From: an uncultured Gammaproteobacteria bacterium
GTDB lineage: Bacteria > Pseudomonadota > Gammaproteobacteria > CAWJOP01
Assembly (NCBI GenBank): GCA_963844535.1
Contig: CAWJOP010000002.1
Coordinates: forward strand, 128,668 to 192,667
Length of the DNA stretch: 64,000 nt
Direction: 5' to 3'
Within the stretch, counting starts at the first letter, position 1; each line of letters begins with the position of its first letter. Shown here one piece after another: positions 1 to 6,000 of this stretch. The position numbers are program-made.

Positions 1-3000
1 TATTGAAAATCAACAAATTCGCGGTATTGTGACGCAGATGGGGCTAAAATTTTATGCCCAAGCGGTGATTTTAACAGTGGGTACATTTTTAGCCGGAAAG
101 ATTCATATTGGTCAAGTGAATTATCAAGGTGGACGTGCTGGCGATCCGCCTGCCAACCAGCTTGCTGAACGTTTACGCGACTTGGCTTTTCAAGTAGGGC
201 GGTTGAAAACAGGTACGCCGCCACGAATTGATGGCAAAACCATTAATTTTGCAGAGTTGTTACCGCAATATAGTGATGAGCCATTGCCGGTATTTTCATT
301 TTTAGGTAAAGCGACAGATCATCCAGAGCAGATTCCTTGTTTTATTACAAAAACCAATGAGAAAACACATGAATTAATTCAACAGGGATTAGTTCATTCA
401 CCCATGTATAGTGGAAAAATTGCAGGGACAGGTCCTCGTTATTGTCCATCTATTGAAGATAAAGTCGTGCGTTTTGCCGATAAAAATTCACATCAGATTT
501 TTTTGGAGCCAGAAGGACTAAATACCCAAGAGTTTTATCCGAATGGCATTTCAACCAGCTTGCCATTTGAAATCCAAGTCGCATTTGTGCGAACCATCCC
601 AGGGTTGGAAAAAGCGCATATTACTCGCCCAGGTTATGCGATCGAATATGATTTTTTTGATCCACGTGGGTTAAAACCAACTCTTGAAACAAAAGCGGTT
701 CAAGGGTTATTTTTTGCTGGCCAAATTAATGGTACTACTGGCTATGAAGAAGCTGCTGCGCAAGGATTGATTGCTGGATTAAATGCAGCACGTTATGTAA
801 AAGGAGAAGAAGGATGGTATCCACGTCGTGATGAGGCTTATATTGGCGTGTTAATTGATGATTTAGTGACTTGTGGTACAGAGGAACCTTATCGCATGTT
901 TACCAGTCGAGCAGAGTATCGGTTGTTGTTACGTGAAGATAATGCTGATTTAAGATTGACACCCATTGGTCGAGAGTTAGGTTTAGTGAGTGAAGAAAGG
1001 TGGCGGCATTTTGCTACAAAATGCGAAGCGATGAATATGGCAGAACAACAATTTAAAGCCAGGTTAATTAGACCGAATACATTAGAAGCCAATGAGATTG
1101 AAAAAATTATCGGAACTTCATTAGAACGTGAATATAAATTATATGATTTATTACGTCGTCCCGAGTTAACTTATCGTTCAATTGCCCACTTTAATTTTGC
1201 TCAGCAATTAGATGTTTTGGCTGCTGAACAAGTAGAAATTCAAGCGAAGTATGAAGGCTATATTGTTAGACAAGTCGCAGAAATTGATCGCCAACGTCGC
1301 TATGAAGATCTTAAATTGCCAGATGATTTTGATTATCAGGAAGTTATTGGTTTATCGGCAGAAGTGTGCCAGAAGTTAAAGCAACATAAACCAGCAACTT
1401 TAGGAATGGCAGCGCGGATTTCGGGAATAACCCCTGCTGCGATTTCGTTATTATTAGTTCATTTAAAGAGAAAGCGATCCAAATCGGAGATGGAGTGAAA
1501 ATCCATGCAAACGGAAGCACAATTTTTAGCTAATGATTTTGGGCTGTTTTTTCATGGCGATGAAATATTAATTCAGCAACAAAATAATCAATTTATTATT
1601 TCTCTGCAACAACTAGCGATAATTAAACCGCCTGATAGTTGGATTGAAAATAGTTATTTGCTTGATGAGTTAGCAAACAAGCGATTACATGTAGTCGAAA
1701 TTTCTACTGAGATAATCGCAGAGCAAGATCATTATGGTTTTTTACCGATTCGCAAATTATTACAAACATTAAATCCAGAATTGTTTCATTTAGTCTGTAA
1801 AGCAAAGCAATTACTCAATTGGCACAAGATAAGCCGGTTTTGCGGTGCTTGTGGGCATTTAACCCAGTTGAGTCAAACAGAAGTAGCAAAAATTTGTCAA
1901 AATTGTCAAAGAATTCATTATCCCTTTTATTCACCCGCCGTTATGGTATTAATAGAACGAGACAATGAAATTTTGCTGGCTAGATCGCCGCATTTTACTC
2001 AAGGTGTATACAGTGCATTAGCAGGATTTATTGCGCCAGCGGAAACTGCTGAAGAAGCAGTCATCCGCGAAGTAACAGAAGAAGTTGGAATAGAAATTAG
2101 TGATATTCAATATTTTGGTACACAAAATTGGCCGTTTCCTAATTCATTTATGTTGGCTTACACGGCGCGTTATGTCAGTGGCGATATTTGTGCCCATGAT
2201 CATGAGCTTGAAGATGCGCGTTGGTTTAATATATCAGCGTTACCGTTATTGCCTTCTCCTGCCAGTATTTCAAGACATTTAATTGATGATTTTATTCGGC
2301 GAAAAAGTAAGCGCGATTTCTAATGCTTGTTTAAACCAAGGAGTATAAAGATGAGGTGTATCAGTGAGCTGCTGCTTTAGGCTATTTACATTCATCCAAC
2401 GCAAATCAGCAATTTCTTTACTATCGGGCTGTAAATTTTCTGGATCGCCATAACTCACAAACACATGATCGACTTCATTCTCGGTTAGCTGATTGTCGAA
2501 TGGAGCGATATAGTGAAAATATCCGTGATAATGTAGTGGAATCTCGATGCCTAATTCTTCTTTTAAACGTCTTTTTGCAGCGGCTAATAGACTTTCTCCA
2601 GGTCTTGGATGACTACAGCAGGTATTTGTCCATAGTCCACCACAATGGTATTTATCGTGTTGCCGTTTTTGAATTAACAGCTCAAGTTGTTGATTTTTTT
2701 GGCGAAAAACAAATACAGAAAAAGCCCGATGGCAAAGTGCTTGCTGATGAGCTGGAAGTTTTTCGAGAGCGCCAGTTGCTCTATCTTTTTCATCAACCAG
2801 CACTACATGATTATTCATGTTTGGTGGAGTAAATGGCCATACCACTTCCATGTCATTAAATTCAGCGCGCACTGAAGGTAAATCCTCAGTAAGAAATAAT
2901 AGCTTTAGGTTAGGTCCTGCATCTTGGGTGAAATAAATAGGTAATCCGGCTTTTCTTAGTTGCCAAATTTTTTGGATAATTTGCAAAGATTCTGGTGTCC

Positions 3001-6000
3001 AATAAAAAATCGGTGGCCAAGCGGTCAACATACTTGCATGCATTGCTAAAGCATTTGACTCACAAATACGACCAAACTCAGCAAAATTTTGCTCGGTAAT
3101 AGCTTGGGTTAATTCATGTAGATCTTTATTAACTTTGCTAGGCCATGCTGAATAATAGCAAGAAGACTCTACAGTTTTTTGCATAGCCACACGTGAACTA
3201 ATGGGCTTTTTTTCGGGATGTAAAATTAAAAGGCCCATGCATAACGAGTTCCAAACTACGTCGATAGGTTCCGCATAGCTGTCCATGCCATCAGATTGTT
3301 TGCCTTCATGCCAGATAACAAATCCTGGCCATAATGAGCGACAGGCGCTACCACTACCTAACCGTGCTAAAATCGATAAGTACTGTGGAGTTAATTGCCA
3401 ATCAAACAAATCATTCAGCGCAAGAGTTAAAGCAGCAAACCCACAGGCAGATGAAGCCAAGCCACTAGCTGCTGGAAGATTCATCTGAGTTTCAATCCGA
3501 AATCGATAGTGATCTTGTGGTCGAATGAGATCGAGAAAAGCAATAATAGGGTTAATAAAAGTATGTTCAGCAGATAAAATTTGTTGATTGAAGATAAATT
3601 CATCTTGTGTGCTGTCAATGACTTTAACGCTGGTAAATGCCCCTTTTTCAGGTAAAGCAAGAGATAAGCTGCTGGTCTTAGGCAAATTTAGTGCTAAGTC
3701 TCGTTTTCCCCAATATTTGATCAAAGCAAAATTTACTGGTGCAAAAGCAAAGCCTTGTGCTTTGGGGATGAAGGTTTTATCGCCTAAAATGTTTTTAACA
3801 AGACGATTCATTTAGGGCCTGTTTGCATTTGATTTACCGTAGCGAAAAAAGCAGAGATTCTGCTAGAGTTTTTCCAAATCTGAGGAGAATACTAGGTCGT
3901 ATTTGACGAAGATTTGGAAAAACTCTAGCTAATCTTATGCTTTTTGCAGTAGGTAAATCAAATGCAAACAGGCCCTAATAATTCCTATTCCCACAATAAT
4001 GCACTAAATCTTTTAAAAAAGCTTCGCCAACAGGATTTAAAGATAATTTTTCAATTTCATTTAATATGCAAGCAGTGCGTTTTGTTATCACTTCATTGGC
4101 ATAAGCTAATGCGCCAGTACCAATAATAATTTTTTTTGCTAACGCTATATCTTCAGAGGTTGCATTAGGATTATTGTGCGCACGTAATAACTGTTGCTTT
4201 TGTTCTTCATTACTGTTTTCAAACGCTTTACAAATCAATAAGGTTTTTTTCCCGTGCAGTAGATCTAATGAAGCTTGCTTGCCAGTAATGTGGTCAGCAC
4301 CAAATAAACCTAAAATATCGTCTTGAATTTGAAATAAGATTCCCAAATCAATGGCTATATTTTTGATATGTGCAGTATTGCGATCATTTTGCTGTGCTAA
4401 AATAGCTGCGCTTAGTAATGGAAATTCGCTGGTGTACCGGGCAGTTTTATAGCGGTACATGGTATAAATATTGTCTTCATGTAAACTAGGTAAAGCAGTA
4501 AATGAAATGTCTAATGCTTGCCCATAACCCGCATCGATACAAATCTGTGCATATAAATCCATCACCTGATTTTTAACTGTTGTAGCAAATTCGCTGCTAG
4601 CAATAGCGCGTAGGCCTAAGTAACCAGCTAGATTTCCAACTAATATCGCCATAGATTCACCATAATAATTTTTTTCGCTATTAAATTGCTGATGAATCGT
4701 TTTACCACCACGTCTTAAATCTGATTGATCCATAATATCATCATGAATCAGTAAAAATGATTGCATTAATTCGCAAGCAATACAGATAGGGAGCAATTTT
4801 TCGGGATTTTCAGCAGAAAAACCTATATAGCCATAATAGAGTAATGCTGGCCGCGTTCTTTTACCGCCACGCAAAGTGAATTCGGCTAATTTTTCAAACA
4901 TATCTTTAGCAAGAGGCCATAAGGCTTCAACTTGCTGTCGGTAATTGTGAAAAAATGCTTCAATAGCTGGTGAGAGAATAGTTTGGAAATCTTTTAATTG
5001 ATTAGGGCCTGTTGACATTTGATTTACCGTAGCGAAAAAAGCAGAGATTCTGCTAGAATTTTCCCAAATTTGAGGAGAATACTAGGTCGTATTTGACAAA
5101 AATTTGGGAAAATTCTAGCTAATCTTATGCTTTTTGGAGTAGGTAAATCAAATGTCAACAGGCCCTGAGCATAATGGAACAGATCAATGTGACAACAAGC
5201 AGGGAAAAATGGCGACGGGAAATCACCAATGTTAATCATAAACATATTTGCGATGATCATTGCAATTGCTATTGTTATTAGTATTCATGAGTTAGGTCAT
5301 TTTTTCTTTGCTAAGTTGTTTGGTGTAAAAGTATTGCGCTTTTCCATAGGTTTTGGCAGGCCTTTGTGGCAACGAGTTGTGCGTGGCACAGAGTATGTGC
5401 TAGGTATGTTACCAATTGGCGGCTATGTTCGTTTACTAGATGAACGTGAGAGTAAGGTTGAAGCAAACGAAGTCCACTTAGCCTTTAATAGACAAGCCTG
5501 TTGGAAACGATTTTGCATTATTTTTGCTGGACCAGGATTCAATTTACTTTTTGCTTGGTTCGCTTTTTGGTTAGTGTTCACTCTCGGAATTCATTTTACT
5601 GTCCCTAAAATAGGCATGATTATTCCTGGTTCCATTGCGGCAAATGCGGGCATTTTGCCGTTTGATCAAATTCTTTCGATAGATGATCGGAAAACTTCAA
5701 ATTGGGGGGCAGTTGTGATGATGTTGGCCCTAAAATATGGTGATGTAGAGCAGATCAATGTGACAGTTTTACCCGCGGGCAAAATCAAACCTTTGGTATG
5801 TGCTTTAGATGTTCGGCAGTGGTCCCTTGATGAGCTTCATCCAAACTTAATAAAAAGTTTAGGTATAGTCGAATATCATCCTAAAGCATCTGATGCACAA
5901 TTACGCTACTTAAAATTTTCTCCTTTTGAATCAACCTGGCAGGCTGCCAAACAAGTGTGGTTTTATGTTTTTTTTAATTTTGTCATTATTTGGAAGATGA

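What the first reader, a model, noticed from the sequence alone, without database searches (positions are those of the whole stretch)
2279..5165. Eukaryote-flavoured isoprenoid module: MVD-IDI gene fusion plus a eukaryote-type FPP synthase, each bracketed by copies of the same MITE
One ORF joins a diphosphomevalonate decarboxylase (APVNFALIKYWGKRD) to a type-1 IPP isomerase (WTNTCCSHPRPGES...ELGIEI). This would channel mevalonate-5-PP to IPP and DMAPP in a single polypeptide. The adjacent prenyltransferase carries the eukaryotic FPPS signatures DDIMDQSDLRRG and FQIQDDILG rather than the bacterial IspA DDxxxxD form. The mevalonate pathway is unusual in a gammaproteobacterium. A fused MVD-IDI together with a eukaryote-like FPPS suggests horizontal acquisition and tight coupling. 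Family A MITE copies sit exactly in the mvd-idi/fpps spacer and at the 5' end of fpps, so the element hairpin is transcribed between the two cistrons.
Basis: partly seen in the sequence, partly recalled or inferred. Interest (0 to 1): 0.6.

Follow-up and report, generated by a model that had tools for sequence, protein, structure and literature searches.

The report
Coxiella-type MVD-IDI fusion operon with MITEs
The fused mevalonate-decarboxylase/IPP-isomerase gene is real but is the ordinary form found in Coxiella and its relatives, the neighbouring prenyl-chain synthase is a prokaryotic (archaeal-like) type rather than a eukaryotic one, and the only unusual detail is that a small mobile hairpin element has landed in both gene boundaries and now appears to supply the synthase's start codon.

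Summary
The sequence observations hold. One uninterrupted 510-aa ORF (2279-3811, minus) joins a diphosphomevalonate decarboxylase to a type-1 IPP isomerase. A 347-aa polyprenyl synthase gene (3975-5018, minus) lies upstream. Two 161-bp copies of one MITE sit at 3815-3975 and 5005-5165.

The fusion is the standard form in Coxiella burnetii (51% identity, colinear), in Coxiella-like endosymbionts and in many uncultured gammaproteobacteria. Both halves score best against bacterial enzymes, not eukaryotic ones.

The "eukaryote-type FPPS" is not eukaryote-like. It is 36-45% identical to prokaryotic "type I GGPPS" proteins from CPR bacteria, Chloroflexota and archaea. It is only 28% identical to human FPPS and 26% to E. 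coli IspA. Its DDIMD and FQIQDD motifs are common to that prokaryotic family. Its product, C15 or C20, is unresolved.

The gene pair is a conserved, tightly packed operon in MITE-free relatives, so the MITEs came later. Copy 1 inserted at the TA of the stop codon. Copy 2 inserted in codon 2-3 of the synthase, and an ATG in its terminal repeat now restores the reading frame.

Verdict: a new member of known kinds, of low to moderate interest.

The parts
2279..3811 (-). mvd-idi: one ORF of 510 aa encoding a fused diphosphomevalonate decarboxylase and type-1 IPP isomerase
   Evidence: It is 51% identical and 98% colinear with the C. burnetii protein P0016. The junction is confirmed by the independent contig L008.
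2858..3745 (-). MVD (GHMP-kinase fold) domain, residues 23-318
   Evidence: TIGR01240 scores 276 bits against a cutoff of 171. The motifs IKYWGK, AASGLASS, SGSACRS and FTQDAGPN align to the corresponding motifs of E. faecalis and Staphylococcus MDD structures.
2324..2818 (-). Type-1 (Nudix) IPP isomerase domain, residues 332-496; the linker from MVD is about 13 residues
   Evidence: NF002995 scores 156 bits against a cutoff of 127. WTNTCCSHP and TENEVDHVF align to WTNSVCGHP and VENEVCPVF of E. coli Idi.
3815..3975 (.). MITE copy 1 (161 bp), filling the whole spacer between the prenyl synthase gene and mvd-idi; flanked by a TA/TA duplication at 3813-3814 and 3976-3977
   Evidence: The RNA hairpin folds at -92.9 kcal/mol, z = -19. 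The same insertion is present in L007.
3975..3977 (-). Stop codon TAG of the prenyl synthase, made of the duplicated TA plus the first G of the MITE
   Evidence: Read directly from the sequence. Removing the MITE and one TA gives ...AAT TAT TAA ATG AAT..., that is, the stop abutting the start. MITE-free relatives have spacers of 7-11 nt.
3975..5018 (-). Short-chain trans-prenyl diphosphate synthase, 347 aa (type-I, archaeal-like; product C15 or C20 unresolved)
   Evidence: PF00348 scores 184 bits. The best PDB and NCBIfam matches are actinobacterial and archaeal. For the nearest homologues and the tree.
4728..4742 (-). First Asp-rich motif, D93-D97 (DDIMD), with no two-residue insertion; the chain-length residues are F88 (-5) and L89 (-4)
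   Evidence: Alignment.
4308..4322 (-). Second Asp-rich motif, D233-G237 (DDILG)
   Evidence: The same DDxLG form occurs in the actinobacterial structures 8f8f and 3lk5.
5005..5165 (.). MITE copy 2 (161 bp), inserted into the extreme 5' end of the prenyl synthase gene; its flanks are CA/TA on the minus strand
   Evidence: The hairpin folds at -87.2 kcal/mol, z = -17.7. The copy in L007 is identical.
5016..5018 (-). Present start codon of the prenyl synthase. It lies inside the MITE terminal repeat, which encodes M-S-T-G-P
   Evidence: It is the first start codon after an in-frame stop. Relatives start 1-5 residues before the conserved QLKDFQ.
5155..5172 (-). Presumed ancestral start codon (ATG, 5172-5170). 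It now opens a 5-codon remnant, MLRAC*, that ends at a TGA in the MITE terminal repeat
   Evidence: Inference from the sequence. Excising the MITE and one TA restores ATG CTT AAT CAA TTA AAA, which reads MLNQLK in frame.
58345..58505 (.). MITE copy 3 (same family, TA/TA flanks). It supplies the last codons and the TGA stop of the M3 peptidase ORF

Best explanation
This is a two-gene isoprenoid operon on the minus strand of an uncultured, probably host-associated gammaproteobacterium related to the Coxiella group.

The downstream gene is the Coxiella-type bifunctional enzyme. A bacterial-type mevalonate-5-diphosphate decarboxylase makes IPP. A type-1 IPP isomerase is fused to its C-terminus through a linker of about 13 residues and equilibrates IPP with DMAPP.

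The upstream gene is a short-chain trans-prenyl diphosphate synthase of the prokaryotic type-I kind: archaeal, CPR or actinobacterial-like, with a DDxxD motif and no insertion. It condenses those C5 units to FPP and/or GGPP.

The pairing is ancestral to a small clade. In MITE-free relatives the stop and start codons are 7-11 nt apart in the tightest cases. Two copies of a 161-bp, TA-targeting MITE inserted later.
- Copy 1 went into the TA of the synthase stop codon. The stop is now TAG, and the whole 163-nt spacer is one hairpin.
- Copy 2 went into codon 2-3 of the synthase. It cut off the old ATG, which is now the remnant MLRAC*. An ATG inside its terminal repeat is in frame and now starts the protein as MSTGPN-QLKDFQ...

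Shown here: domain identities, conservation of the fusion, synteny, MITE anatomy and insertion points.

Inferred: catalytic activity, product length, co-transcription, and actual use of the MITE-borne ATG.
For: Fusion:
- The ORF and its domains are established.
- Catalytic motifs of both halves are retained.
- Of the 120 homologues listed, 118 carry both MVD and Nudix domains. They include C. burnetii, several Coxiella endosymbionts and Zooshikella.
- At 50% clustering about ten full-length fusion representatives exist.
- C. burnetii has the operon HMGR-MVK-PMK-MVD/IDI.
- An independent contig confirms the junction.

Synthase type:
- PDB ranking: 8f8f 121 bits, 3lk5 116, 1wy0 100, 5jfq 99, against IspA 59.8 and human FPPS 59.7.
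- NCBIfam: the IspA model scores 68 bits against a cutoff of 321, while IdsA-like, GGPPS and GFPPS models score 140-173 bits.
- Nearest homologues outside its own clade are labelled "GGPPS type I" and come from Patescibacteria, Wirthbacteria, Chloroflexota and archaea.
- BLASTP identity and the NJ tree agree. The reference sequences were verified against PDB entries.

Operon:
- The order gyrA, usp, M50 peptidase, then divergently prenyl synthase and MVD-IDI, is conserved in L004, L009 and L010. L011 shows the pair and L003 its downstream end.

MITE:
- For its anatomy.
- Flanks are TA/TA in 3 of 5 full copies examined and degenerate by one base in the other 2.
- The same insertions occur in a second metagenome strain.
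- dN/dS since that split is about 0.2 for both genes.
Against: - No expression or enzymatic data exist for this protein, or, as far as I could find in the searchable literature, for any MVD-IDI fusion.
- There is no obvious Shine-Dalgarno sequence before the MITE-borne ATG, and that ATG is buried in a very stable stem.
- The dN/dS estimates rest on only 7 and 18 substitutions.
- The "ancestral ATG" overlaps a weak promoter-like match, so it could be coincidental.
- The window assembly carries indel errors elsewhere, in gyrA, gatA and gatB. This region, however, is corroborated by L007 and L008.
- The organism's lineage is only loosely placed. RecG gives no named close relative.
Confidence: 0.8

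Rival explanations
1. One reading: a eukaryote-derived or eukaryote-like isoprenoid module (the fusion plus a eukaryote-type FPPS), horizontally acquired by an otherwise MEP-type gammaproteobacterium.
For: The FARM has no two-residue insertion. The strings DDIMD and FQIQDD are literally shared with human FPPS. BLASTP to human FPPS (73.9 bits) is marginally higher than to IspA (60.5 bits).
Against: All three catalytic units score best against prokaryotic proteins. The homologues listed at 36-45% identity are all prokaryotic where named. The -4 position is Leu, not the aromatic residue that defines eukaryotic type-I FPPS. The fusion is vertically shared with Coxiella. The MVA pathway is reported for C. 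burnetii and L. pneumophila (PMC9803151).
Confidence: 0.03
2. MITE copy 2 has inactivated or silenced the prenyl synthase. The intact ORF is a recent relic, and the MITE-borne ATG is not used.
For: The insertion separates the gene from its presumed original ATG and promoter. There is no clear ribosome-binding site before the new ATG, which is sequestered in a stem of -87 kcal/mol. The genome shows other broken genes.
Against: The ORF is full length and in frame, with all motifs intact, in two strains that diverged after the insertion. dN/dS is about 0.2, though on small counts. The broken genes elsewhere look like assembly indels, because gyrA is intact in L007.
Confidence: 0.12
3. The two same-orientation MITEs form a composite mobile unit that imported the prenyl synthase gene into this site.
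For: Two 93%-identical direct copies flank the gene exactly, 1190 bp apart. The synthase has a patchy distribution and archaeal/CPR-like affinities.
Against: Relatives without any MITE already carry the synthase at the same position between the M50 peptidase gene and mvd-idi. Each MITE has its own TA flanks. The copies cut into the gene's own start and stop codons.
Confidence: 0.03
4. The MITE hairpin between the cistrons has acquired a regulatory role. It could be an RNase III processing site or a partial attenuator that sets the synthase to MVD-IDI ratio. Alternatively the stem could bring the stop and start codons together and so preserve translational coupling.
For: The stop TAG and the start ATG sit at the two base-paired feet of the stem, 0 and 3 nt from it. 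A 6-codon mini-ORF in the terminal repeat ends in an ATGA overlap with the mvd-idi start. A small terminator-like hairpin with a T-run lies inside the element on the sense strand. The insertion is fixed in two strains. C. burnetii MITEs are transcribed and were proposed as RNase III substrates (PMC5896051).
Against: This rests purely on structure and position, with no expression data. Only two strains of one species carry the element, so fixation may be neutral. The terminator-like match is weak: a 6-bp stem, with 5 such sites found against 3.1 expected.
Confidence: 0.2
5. The fused ORF is an assembly artefact joining two adjacent genes.
For: The assembly has frameshift-type errors in other genes.
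Against: The same fusion occurs in complete C. burnetii genomes and in more than 100 other protein clusters. An independent contig reproduces the junction without gaps.
Confidence: 0.01

Closest known systems
Coxiella burnetii MVD/IDI fusion protein (P0016, 503 aa; last gene of the HMGR-MVK-PMK-MVD/IDI operon)
   Same: The architecture is the same: MVD_N, GHMP and MDD_C domains followed by a Nudix IDI. Length is similar, identity is 51% and coverage 98%.
   Different: The genomic context differs. Here the gene follows a prenyl synthase, and no other MVA genes lie within the 64-kb window. In C. burnetii it follows PMK.
Monofunctional bacterial mevalonate diphosphate decarboxylases (PDB 5v2l, 2hk2, 3qt5) and enterobacterial Idi (PDB 3hyq, 1nfs)
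   Same: These are the best structural-sequence matches for the two halves, and the catalytic motifs are conserved.
   Different: They are separate polypeptides. From my own knowledge, the MVA operons of Gram-positive cocci use a type-2 (FMN) IDI rather than a type-1 enzyme.
Prokaryotic type-I short-chain prenyl diphosphate synthases (archaeal GGPPS 1wy0 and 5jfq; actinobacterial FPPS 8f8f and GGPPS 3lk5; JGI label 'GGPPS type I')
   Same: They share a DDxxD FARM without insertion, an aromatic residue at -5 and a DDxLG-type second motif. They give the highest scores and 36-45% identity.
   Different: No equivalog cutoff is reached. The -4 residue is Leu rather than Ser, Thr or Ala, so the product length cannot be transferred from these enzymes.
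Eukaryotic FPPS (human, PDB 1zw5)
   Same: It has a DDIMD FARM without insertion and an FQIQDD second motif.
   Different: Identity is only 28% over 236 residues and the phmmer score is 59.7 bits. Human FPPS has Phe-Phe at -5/-4, whereas this protein has Phe-Leu. It does not group with this protein in the tree.
E. coli IspA (PDB 1rqj)
   Same: It has the same fold and reaction class (PF00348).
   Different: IspA has the DDLPAMDD insertion. Identity is 26%, and the IspA model scores 68 bits against a cutoff of 321.
Bacterial MITEs: C. burnetii QMITE1/QMITE2 (PMC5896051) and, from my own knowledge, Neisseria Correia elements
   Same: All are small, non-coding, hairpin-forming elements with terminal inverted repeats that sit at gene boundaries and overlap ORF ends. 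This element and Correia elements share a TA target duplication and a size of about 150-160 bp.
   Different: I saw no sequence similarity to these families, but I did not test for it. In C. burnetii all affected functional genes carry the insertion at the 3' end (PMC5896051). Here one copy sits at a 5' end and supplies the start codon. The element was found only in this species' contigs.

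Membership tests
Diphosphomevalonate decarboxylase (TIGR01240) | Whole-protein score above the curated equivalog cutoff | tested here: met
   276.2 bits against a cutoff of 171.35, residues 23-318.
Diphosphomevalonate decarboxylase (TIGR01240) | Conserved catalytic and ATP-binding motifs: Lys in IKYWGK, the GHMP Ser-rich loop, Arg in SGSAxRS, and Asp in the (M/Q)DAGPN motif | tested here: met
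   All align with the E. faecalis, S. aureus and S. epidermidis MDD structures. The functional roles of these residues are from my own knowledge.
Type-1 IPP isomerase (TIGR02150 / NF002995) | Score above the curated cutoffs | tested here: met
   125.3 bits against 105.8, and 155.6 bits against 127.
Type-1 IPP isomerase (TIGR02150 / NF002995) | Catalytic Cys (E. coli C67) and the Glu pair (E114/E116) | tested here: met
   WTNTCCSHP aligns to WTNSVCGHP, and TENEVDHVF aligns to VENEVCPVF. The residue numbering is from my own knowledge.
Coxiella-type MVD-IDI fusion | Both domains in one reading frame, colinear with the C. burnetii protein | tested here: met
   (98% coverage). The junction is confirmed by L008.
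Coxiella-type MVD-IDI fusion | Both activities present in one polypeptide | not testable with these tools
   Needs enzyme assays. I found no published characterisation.
Eukaryotic (type I) FPPS | Aromatic residues at both -4 and -5 before the FARM | tested here: not met
   The window has F88-L89, whereas human FPPS has F-F.
Eukaryotic (type I) FPPS | Closer to eukaryotic FPPS than to prokaryotic prenyl synthases | tested here: not met
   28% identity and 59.7 bits to human FPPS, against 36-45% identity and 99-121 bits to prokaryotic type-I enzymes.
Bacterial IspA (type II FPPS) | Two-residue insertion in the FARM (DDxxxxD), and a score above the PRK10581 cutoff | tested here: not met
   There is no insertion. 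The model scores 68.2 bits against a cutoff of 321.
Archaeal-type (type I) GGPPS / IdsA | DDxxD FARM without insertion, and an aromatic residue at -5 | tested here: met
   The window reads SFLLIHDDIMD, while 1wy0, 5jfq and 6kd7 read NYSLVHDDIMD, NFTLVHDDIMD and NFTLLHDDIMD.
Archaeal-type (type I) GGPPS / IdsA | Score above the equivalog cutoffs (NF040698 IdsA, NF041003 GGPP_syn), which would allow the C20 product to be assigned | tested here: not met
   139.8 bits against 468, and 141.8 bits against 500. Only superfamily membership holds (PF00348, 184 bits). The product length is unresolved.
MITE | Terminal inverted repeats, small size and no coding capacity | tested here: met
   The terminal repeats are 24-27 nt and the element is 161 bp. 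The whole element folds as one hairpin.
MITE | Target-site duplication | tested here: met
   TA/TA flanks in 3 of 5 full copies examined. The other two are CA/TA and TA/TC.
MITE | Multiple dispersed copies | tested here: met
   Three full copies and one solo terminal repeat in the window, plus three further copies in contigs L013 and L014 of the same metagenome species.
MITE | A cognate autonomous IS with matching terminal repeats | not tested
   None is present in the window. The rest of the genome was not available.

The most novel reading that the evidence does not exclude
This MITE family may have become a functional part of the operon. Its roughly 75-bp stem places the prenyl synthase stop codon and the mvd-idi start codon at the two paired feet of the hairpin. 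A terminating ribosome, or RNase III cleavage, could therefore control access to the downstream start. That would be structure-bridged translational coupling across a 163-nt insert. In addition, the family's terminal repeats systematically donate in-frame ATG and TGA codons to host genes. Three cases are seen: the synthase start, the MLRAC* remnant, and the M3 peptidase C-terminus and stop.
Probability: 0.15. Interest if true: 0.5.

Novelty: new member of a known kind. Interest (0 to 1): 0.25.

Why it matters
The main value is corrective. The fusion is the normal Coxiella-group enzyme, not a sign of eukaryotic gene transfer, and Asp-rich motif strings alone cannot type a prenyl synthase.

Two modest points remain of interest.
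- A small uncultured clade pairs the MVD-IDI fusion with an archaeal/CPR-like short-chain prenyl synthase. This synthase possibly replaces IspA. The three consecutive reactions from mevalonate-PP to FPP or GGPP would then be encoded by two adjacent genes.
- The locus gives a clean, reconstructable example of a bacterial MITE that hit a gene's second and third codons and simultaneously supplied a replacement start codon. In C. burnetii only 3'-end overlaps with functional genes were reported.

The MVD-IDI fusion itself appears never to have been characterised biochemically. It could be a compact part for pathway engineering.

Tried and rejected
- Looked for the remaining mevalonate genes (HMGS, HMGR, MVK, PMK) in the window by running Pfam on 34 of the 40 ORFs of at least 150 aa. 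None was found.
- Tried to name the source organism. The exact proteins sit on an unnamed 322-kb NCBI/ENA contig. The encoding-contig look-up failed. The genome-contig scan found only distant IDI hits. RecG gave only unnamed relatives and roughly 58% identity to assorted Gammaproteobacteria.
- Searched the literature for a described MVD-IDI fusion with four queries. No paper describing it was found. Only database annotations, such as the JGI label, name both activities.
- Scanned with Rfam. Nothing matched in the region, and the window yielded only one tRNA.
- Scanned for promoters and terminators. No above-chance signal appeared: 6 promoter-like sites against 10.7 expected.
- Scanned metagenomes for the MITE. 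It was found only in the same species' contigs, with no empty site and no parent IS.
- Considered and rejected three ideas: a composite-transposon origin of the synthase (contradicted by synteny), the fusion as an assembly artefact (contradicted by conservation), and eukaryotic affinity of any domain (contradicted by score rankings).

Full report
OBSERVATION

The region reads as described. On the minus strand, ORF 2279-3811 encodes 510 aa without interruption.
- Pfam finds MVD-like_N, GHMP_kinases_N and MDD_C over residues 24-319, and NUDIX over residues 361-485.
- NCBIfam equivalog models pass their curated cutoffs for both activities. Diphosphomevalonate decarboxylase (TIGR01240) scores 276 bits against 171. 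Type-1 IPP isomerase scores 156 against 127 (NF002995) and 125 against 106 (TIGR02150).
- The catalytic motifs of both halves align with solved bacterial enzymes.
- ORF 3975-5018 encodes a 347-aa polyprenyl synthetase (PF00348, 184 bits).

Two 161-bp copies of one element lie at 3815-3975 and 5005-5165. They are 93% identical and in the same orientation. A third copy lies at 58345-58505 and a solo terminal repeat at 10577-10600. The terminal-repeat pattern gives 7 matches where none is expected by chance. As RNA, each copy folds into one long hairpin, at -92.9 and -87.2 kcal/mol with z-scores of -19 and -18.

Only the synthase gene is bracketed by two copies. The mvd-idi gene has a copy only upstream.

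IS THE FUSION REAL, AND IS IT SPECIAL?

The window assembly does contain indel problems elsewhere. gyrA carries two single-base insertions relative to a 98.5%-identical metagenome contig, L007, in which gyrA is intact. gatA and gatB are fragmented over several frames.

The region of interest is nevertheless corroborated.
- L008, from a different metagenome, covers window 1655-3275 at 97.7% identity without a gap. That span includes the MVD/IDI junction.
- L007 reproduces the synthase gene and both MITEs.

The same architecture is also widespread.
- Of the 120 homologues listed, 118 carry both MVD and Nudix domains.
- They include C. burnetii (P0016, 503 aa, 51% identity, 98% coverage), several Coxiella-like tick endosymbionts, Coxiellaceae MAGs and Zooshikella.
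- In C. burnetii the gene closes an HMGR-MVK-PMK-MVD/IDI operon.
- An exhaustive HMMER scan of 1.84 billion cluster representatives finds about ten full-length fusion representatives at 50% identity. It also finds longer GHMP-kinase+MVD+IDI triple fusions.

So the fusion is a conserved family trait, and some pipelines already annotate both activities (the JGI label). I found no paper that describes or characterises it.

IS ANYTHING EUKARYOTE-FLAVOURED?

No.
- The MVD half scores 186-209 bits to Enterococcus and Staphylococcus MDD structures, against 137-150 bits to yeast, mouse and human MVD.
- The IDI half scores 81-99 bits to Salmonella and E. coli Idi, against about 72 bits to human IDI1.

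For the synthase, the PDB ranking is as follows:
- an actinobacterial FPPS (8f8f), 121 bits;
- a GGPPS (3lk5), 116 bits;
- archaeal-type GGPPS (1wy0 and 5jfq), about 99 bits;
- E. coli IspA, 59.8 bits;
- human FPPS, 59.7 bits.

Beyond a small clade of its own (eight clusters at 64-79% identity), the listed homologues are 35-51% identical. Where a source names them, they are JGI-labelled "GGPPS type I" or come from an alphaproteobacterial MAG, Wirthbacteria, Patescibacteria, Chloroflexota, Methanospirareceae and Woesearchaeota. No Coxiella protein and no eukaryote appears among the named hits.

I recalled the E. coli IspA and human FPPS sequences and verified them as identical to PDB 1rqj and 1zw5. 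BLASTP then gives 26% and 28% identity to the window protein. In an NJ tree of 16 sequences the window protein groups with the prokaryotic type-I set, apart from both references, with bootstrap support of 71 for that set.

There is no two-residue FARM insertion, and DDIMD and FQIQDD match human FPPS. These strings, however, are shared by the whole prokaryotic type-I family.

The chain-length residues are F88 (-5) and L89 (-4). Eukaryotic FPPS has two aromatics at these positions. Archaeal GGPPS has an aromatic followed by Ser or Thr. The product, C15 or C20, therefore cannot be called from sequence. No equivalog cutoff is reached.

GENOMIC CONTEXT AND HISTORY

The order gyrA, usp, M50 peptidase, then divergently prenyl synthase and MVD-IDI, is conserved in L004, L009 and L010. 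L011 shows the pair, and L003 shows the synthase C-terminus followed by MVD-IDI. None of these carries the MITE.

The spacer between the synthase stop and the MVD-IDI start varies among them:
- 7 nt in L011;
- 11 nt in L003;
- the called genes overlap in L009;
- 65 nt in L010;
- 126 nt in L004, which holds an unrelated palindromic repeat.

The pair is therefore an ancestral, tightly packed operon, and the MITEs are secondary. This rules out the idea that two MITEs carried the synthase in as a composite unit.

No other mevalonate-pathway gene lies in the 64-kb window. The window does encode a 1545-aa ankyrin-repeat protein and a WipA-like phosphatase protein. Both are consistent with a host-associated lifestyle. 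The mevalonate pathway is reported for both C. burnetii and L. pneumophila (PMC9803151). It is thus not anomalous for this neighbourhood of the Gammaproteobacteria, although I could not place the organism precisely.

WHAT THE MITES DID

The element is 161 bp with terminal repeats GGGCCTGTT(G/T)(A/G)CATTTGATTTACC. Its flanks are TA/TA in three of five full copies examined and one base off in the other two.

Copy 1. The minus strand reads ...AAT TAT TA|GGGCC...GGCCC|TA A ATG AAT.... The synthase stop codon TAG is the duplicated TA plus the first G of the element. Removing the element and one TA gives ...TAT TAA ATG AAT..., with the stop abutting the start.

Copy 2. The minus strand reads ...ATT ATG CTC A|GGGCC...AAATCAAATGTCAACAGGCCC|TA ATC AAT TAA....
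- The present ORF starts at the ATG inside the terminal repeat (5018-5016) and reads MSTGPN-QLKDFQ...
- Relatives begin M-QLKDFQ, VHILT-QLKDFQ and VNVLA-QLKEFQ.
- Excising the element and one TA restores ATG CTT AAT CAA TTA AAA, which reads MLNQLK in frame.
- The upstream ATG (5172-5170) is thus the likely original start. It now opens only MLRAC*, ending at a TGA in the terminal repeat.

The same "RAC*" ending is donated by copy 3 to the M3 peptidase ORF.

Both insertions are present in a second strain (L007), so they predate that split. Since then both genes show dN/dS of about 0.2, on few substitutions. This is weak evidence that they remain functional. In C. burnetii, all MITE overlaps with functional genes are reported at 3' ends (PMC5896051). 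A start-codon-donating insertion at a 5' end is a small extension of that picture.

MECHANISM

Shown: two adjacent genes encode three consecutive activities, namely MVAPP to IPP, IPP to and from DMAPP, and C5 condensation to a short prenyl diphosphate.

Inferred from family knowledge: the fusion guarantees equimolar, co-localised MVD and IDI. Channelling is not demonstrated.

Inferred from anatomy: no above-chance promoter or strong terminator was detected between the genes. mvd-idi is therefore most likely transcribed through MITE copy 1, so the mRNA carries a stem of about 75 bp between the cistrons.

The synthase stop and the mvd-idi start lie at the two feet of that stem. The start is 3 nt beyond it, and a 6-codon mini-ORF ends in an ATGA overlap with it. 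The hairpin could therefore be neutral, could be an RNase III target, or could bridge translational coupling. I give a regulatory role about 0.2.

VERDICT

- The eukaryote and HGT interpretation is not supported.
- The locus is a new member of known kinds: the Coxiella-type MVD-IDI fusion, a prokaryotic type-I short-chain prenyl synthase, and a TA-targeting MITE.
- One neat but minor twist is the MITE-supplied start codon.
- Interest: 0.25.

Noticed in passing
window 7056-9652 (gyrA); indels at 7258 and 7850: gyrA is split into three frames by two single-base insertions relative to the 98.5%-identical contig L007, where gyrA is an intact 852-aa gene. This probably reflects assembly indel errors rather than loss of an essential gene.
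   Followed up: yes
window 21400-24700 (minus strand): gatB and gatA are fragmented over several reading frames. This is the same kind of problem as in gyrA, so it is either an assembly-quality caveat or genuine gene decay.
   Followed up: partly
window 58345-58505 and ORF 58495-60540: The third MITE copy has TA/TA flanks. It supplies the last three codons and the TGA stop (...ITRAC*) of the M3 oligopeptidase gene. It ends 8 nt before the aroB start codon.
   Followed up: yes
window 6367-6551 and 35739-35922: A second palindromic repeat family of about 185 bp, with copies 93% identical. One copy lies in the spacer between the M50 peptidase and usp genes, right next to the finding.
   Followed up: partly
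window 10577-10600 and 10908-11046 (relatives at 36160-36283): A solo terminal repeat of the family A MITE sits next to the pyrF start. A further long palindromic repeat lies in the same spacer.
   Followed up: no
L013 5089-5244 and 6195-6355; L014 4081-4241: Further copies of the family A MITE, 89-93% identical. They were found only in contigs of one JGI metagenome (Ga0116226). No copy was found in any other sample, and no parent IS was found.
   Followed up: partly
P0032 (765 aa), P0077 (807 aa); also P0262, P0266, P0268 and others (about 600-700 aa): Longer fusions exist in metagenomes. Some are GHMP-kinase (PMK- or MVK-like) + MVD + IDI triple fusions. Many other proteins carry MVD in their C-terminal half.
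   Followed up: no
L004 9875-10000: In a 66%-identical relative, the same spacer between the synthase and MVD-IDI genes is occupied by a different, GC-rich REP-like palindrome. This junction seems to attract repeat insertions.
   Followed up: no
L011 2908-4011; L003 1709-3553: In relatives, MVD-IDI is followed by a type III PKS/KAS-III-like gene (L011) or by an acetyl/acetoacetyl-CoA synthetase-like gene (L003). These are possible alternative entries into the upper mevalonate pathway.
   Followed up: no
window 26344-30981 and 47304-52916: A 1545-aa ankyrin-repeat protein and an 1870-aa protein with a WipA-like phosphatase domain. These are effector-like genes that suggest an intracellular, amoeba- or host-associated lifestyle.
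   Followed up: no
window 2279-2323: The 3' ends of mvd-idi and the convergent nudC gene overlap by 45 nt.
   Followed up: no
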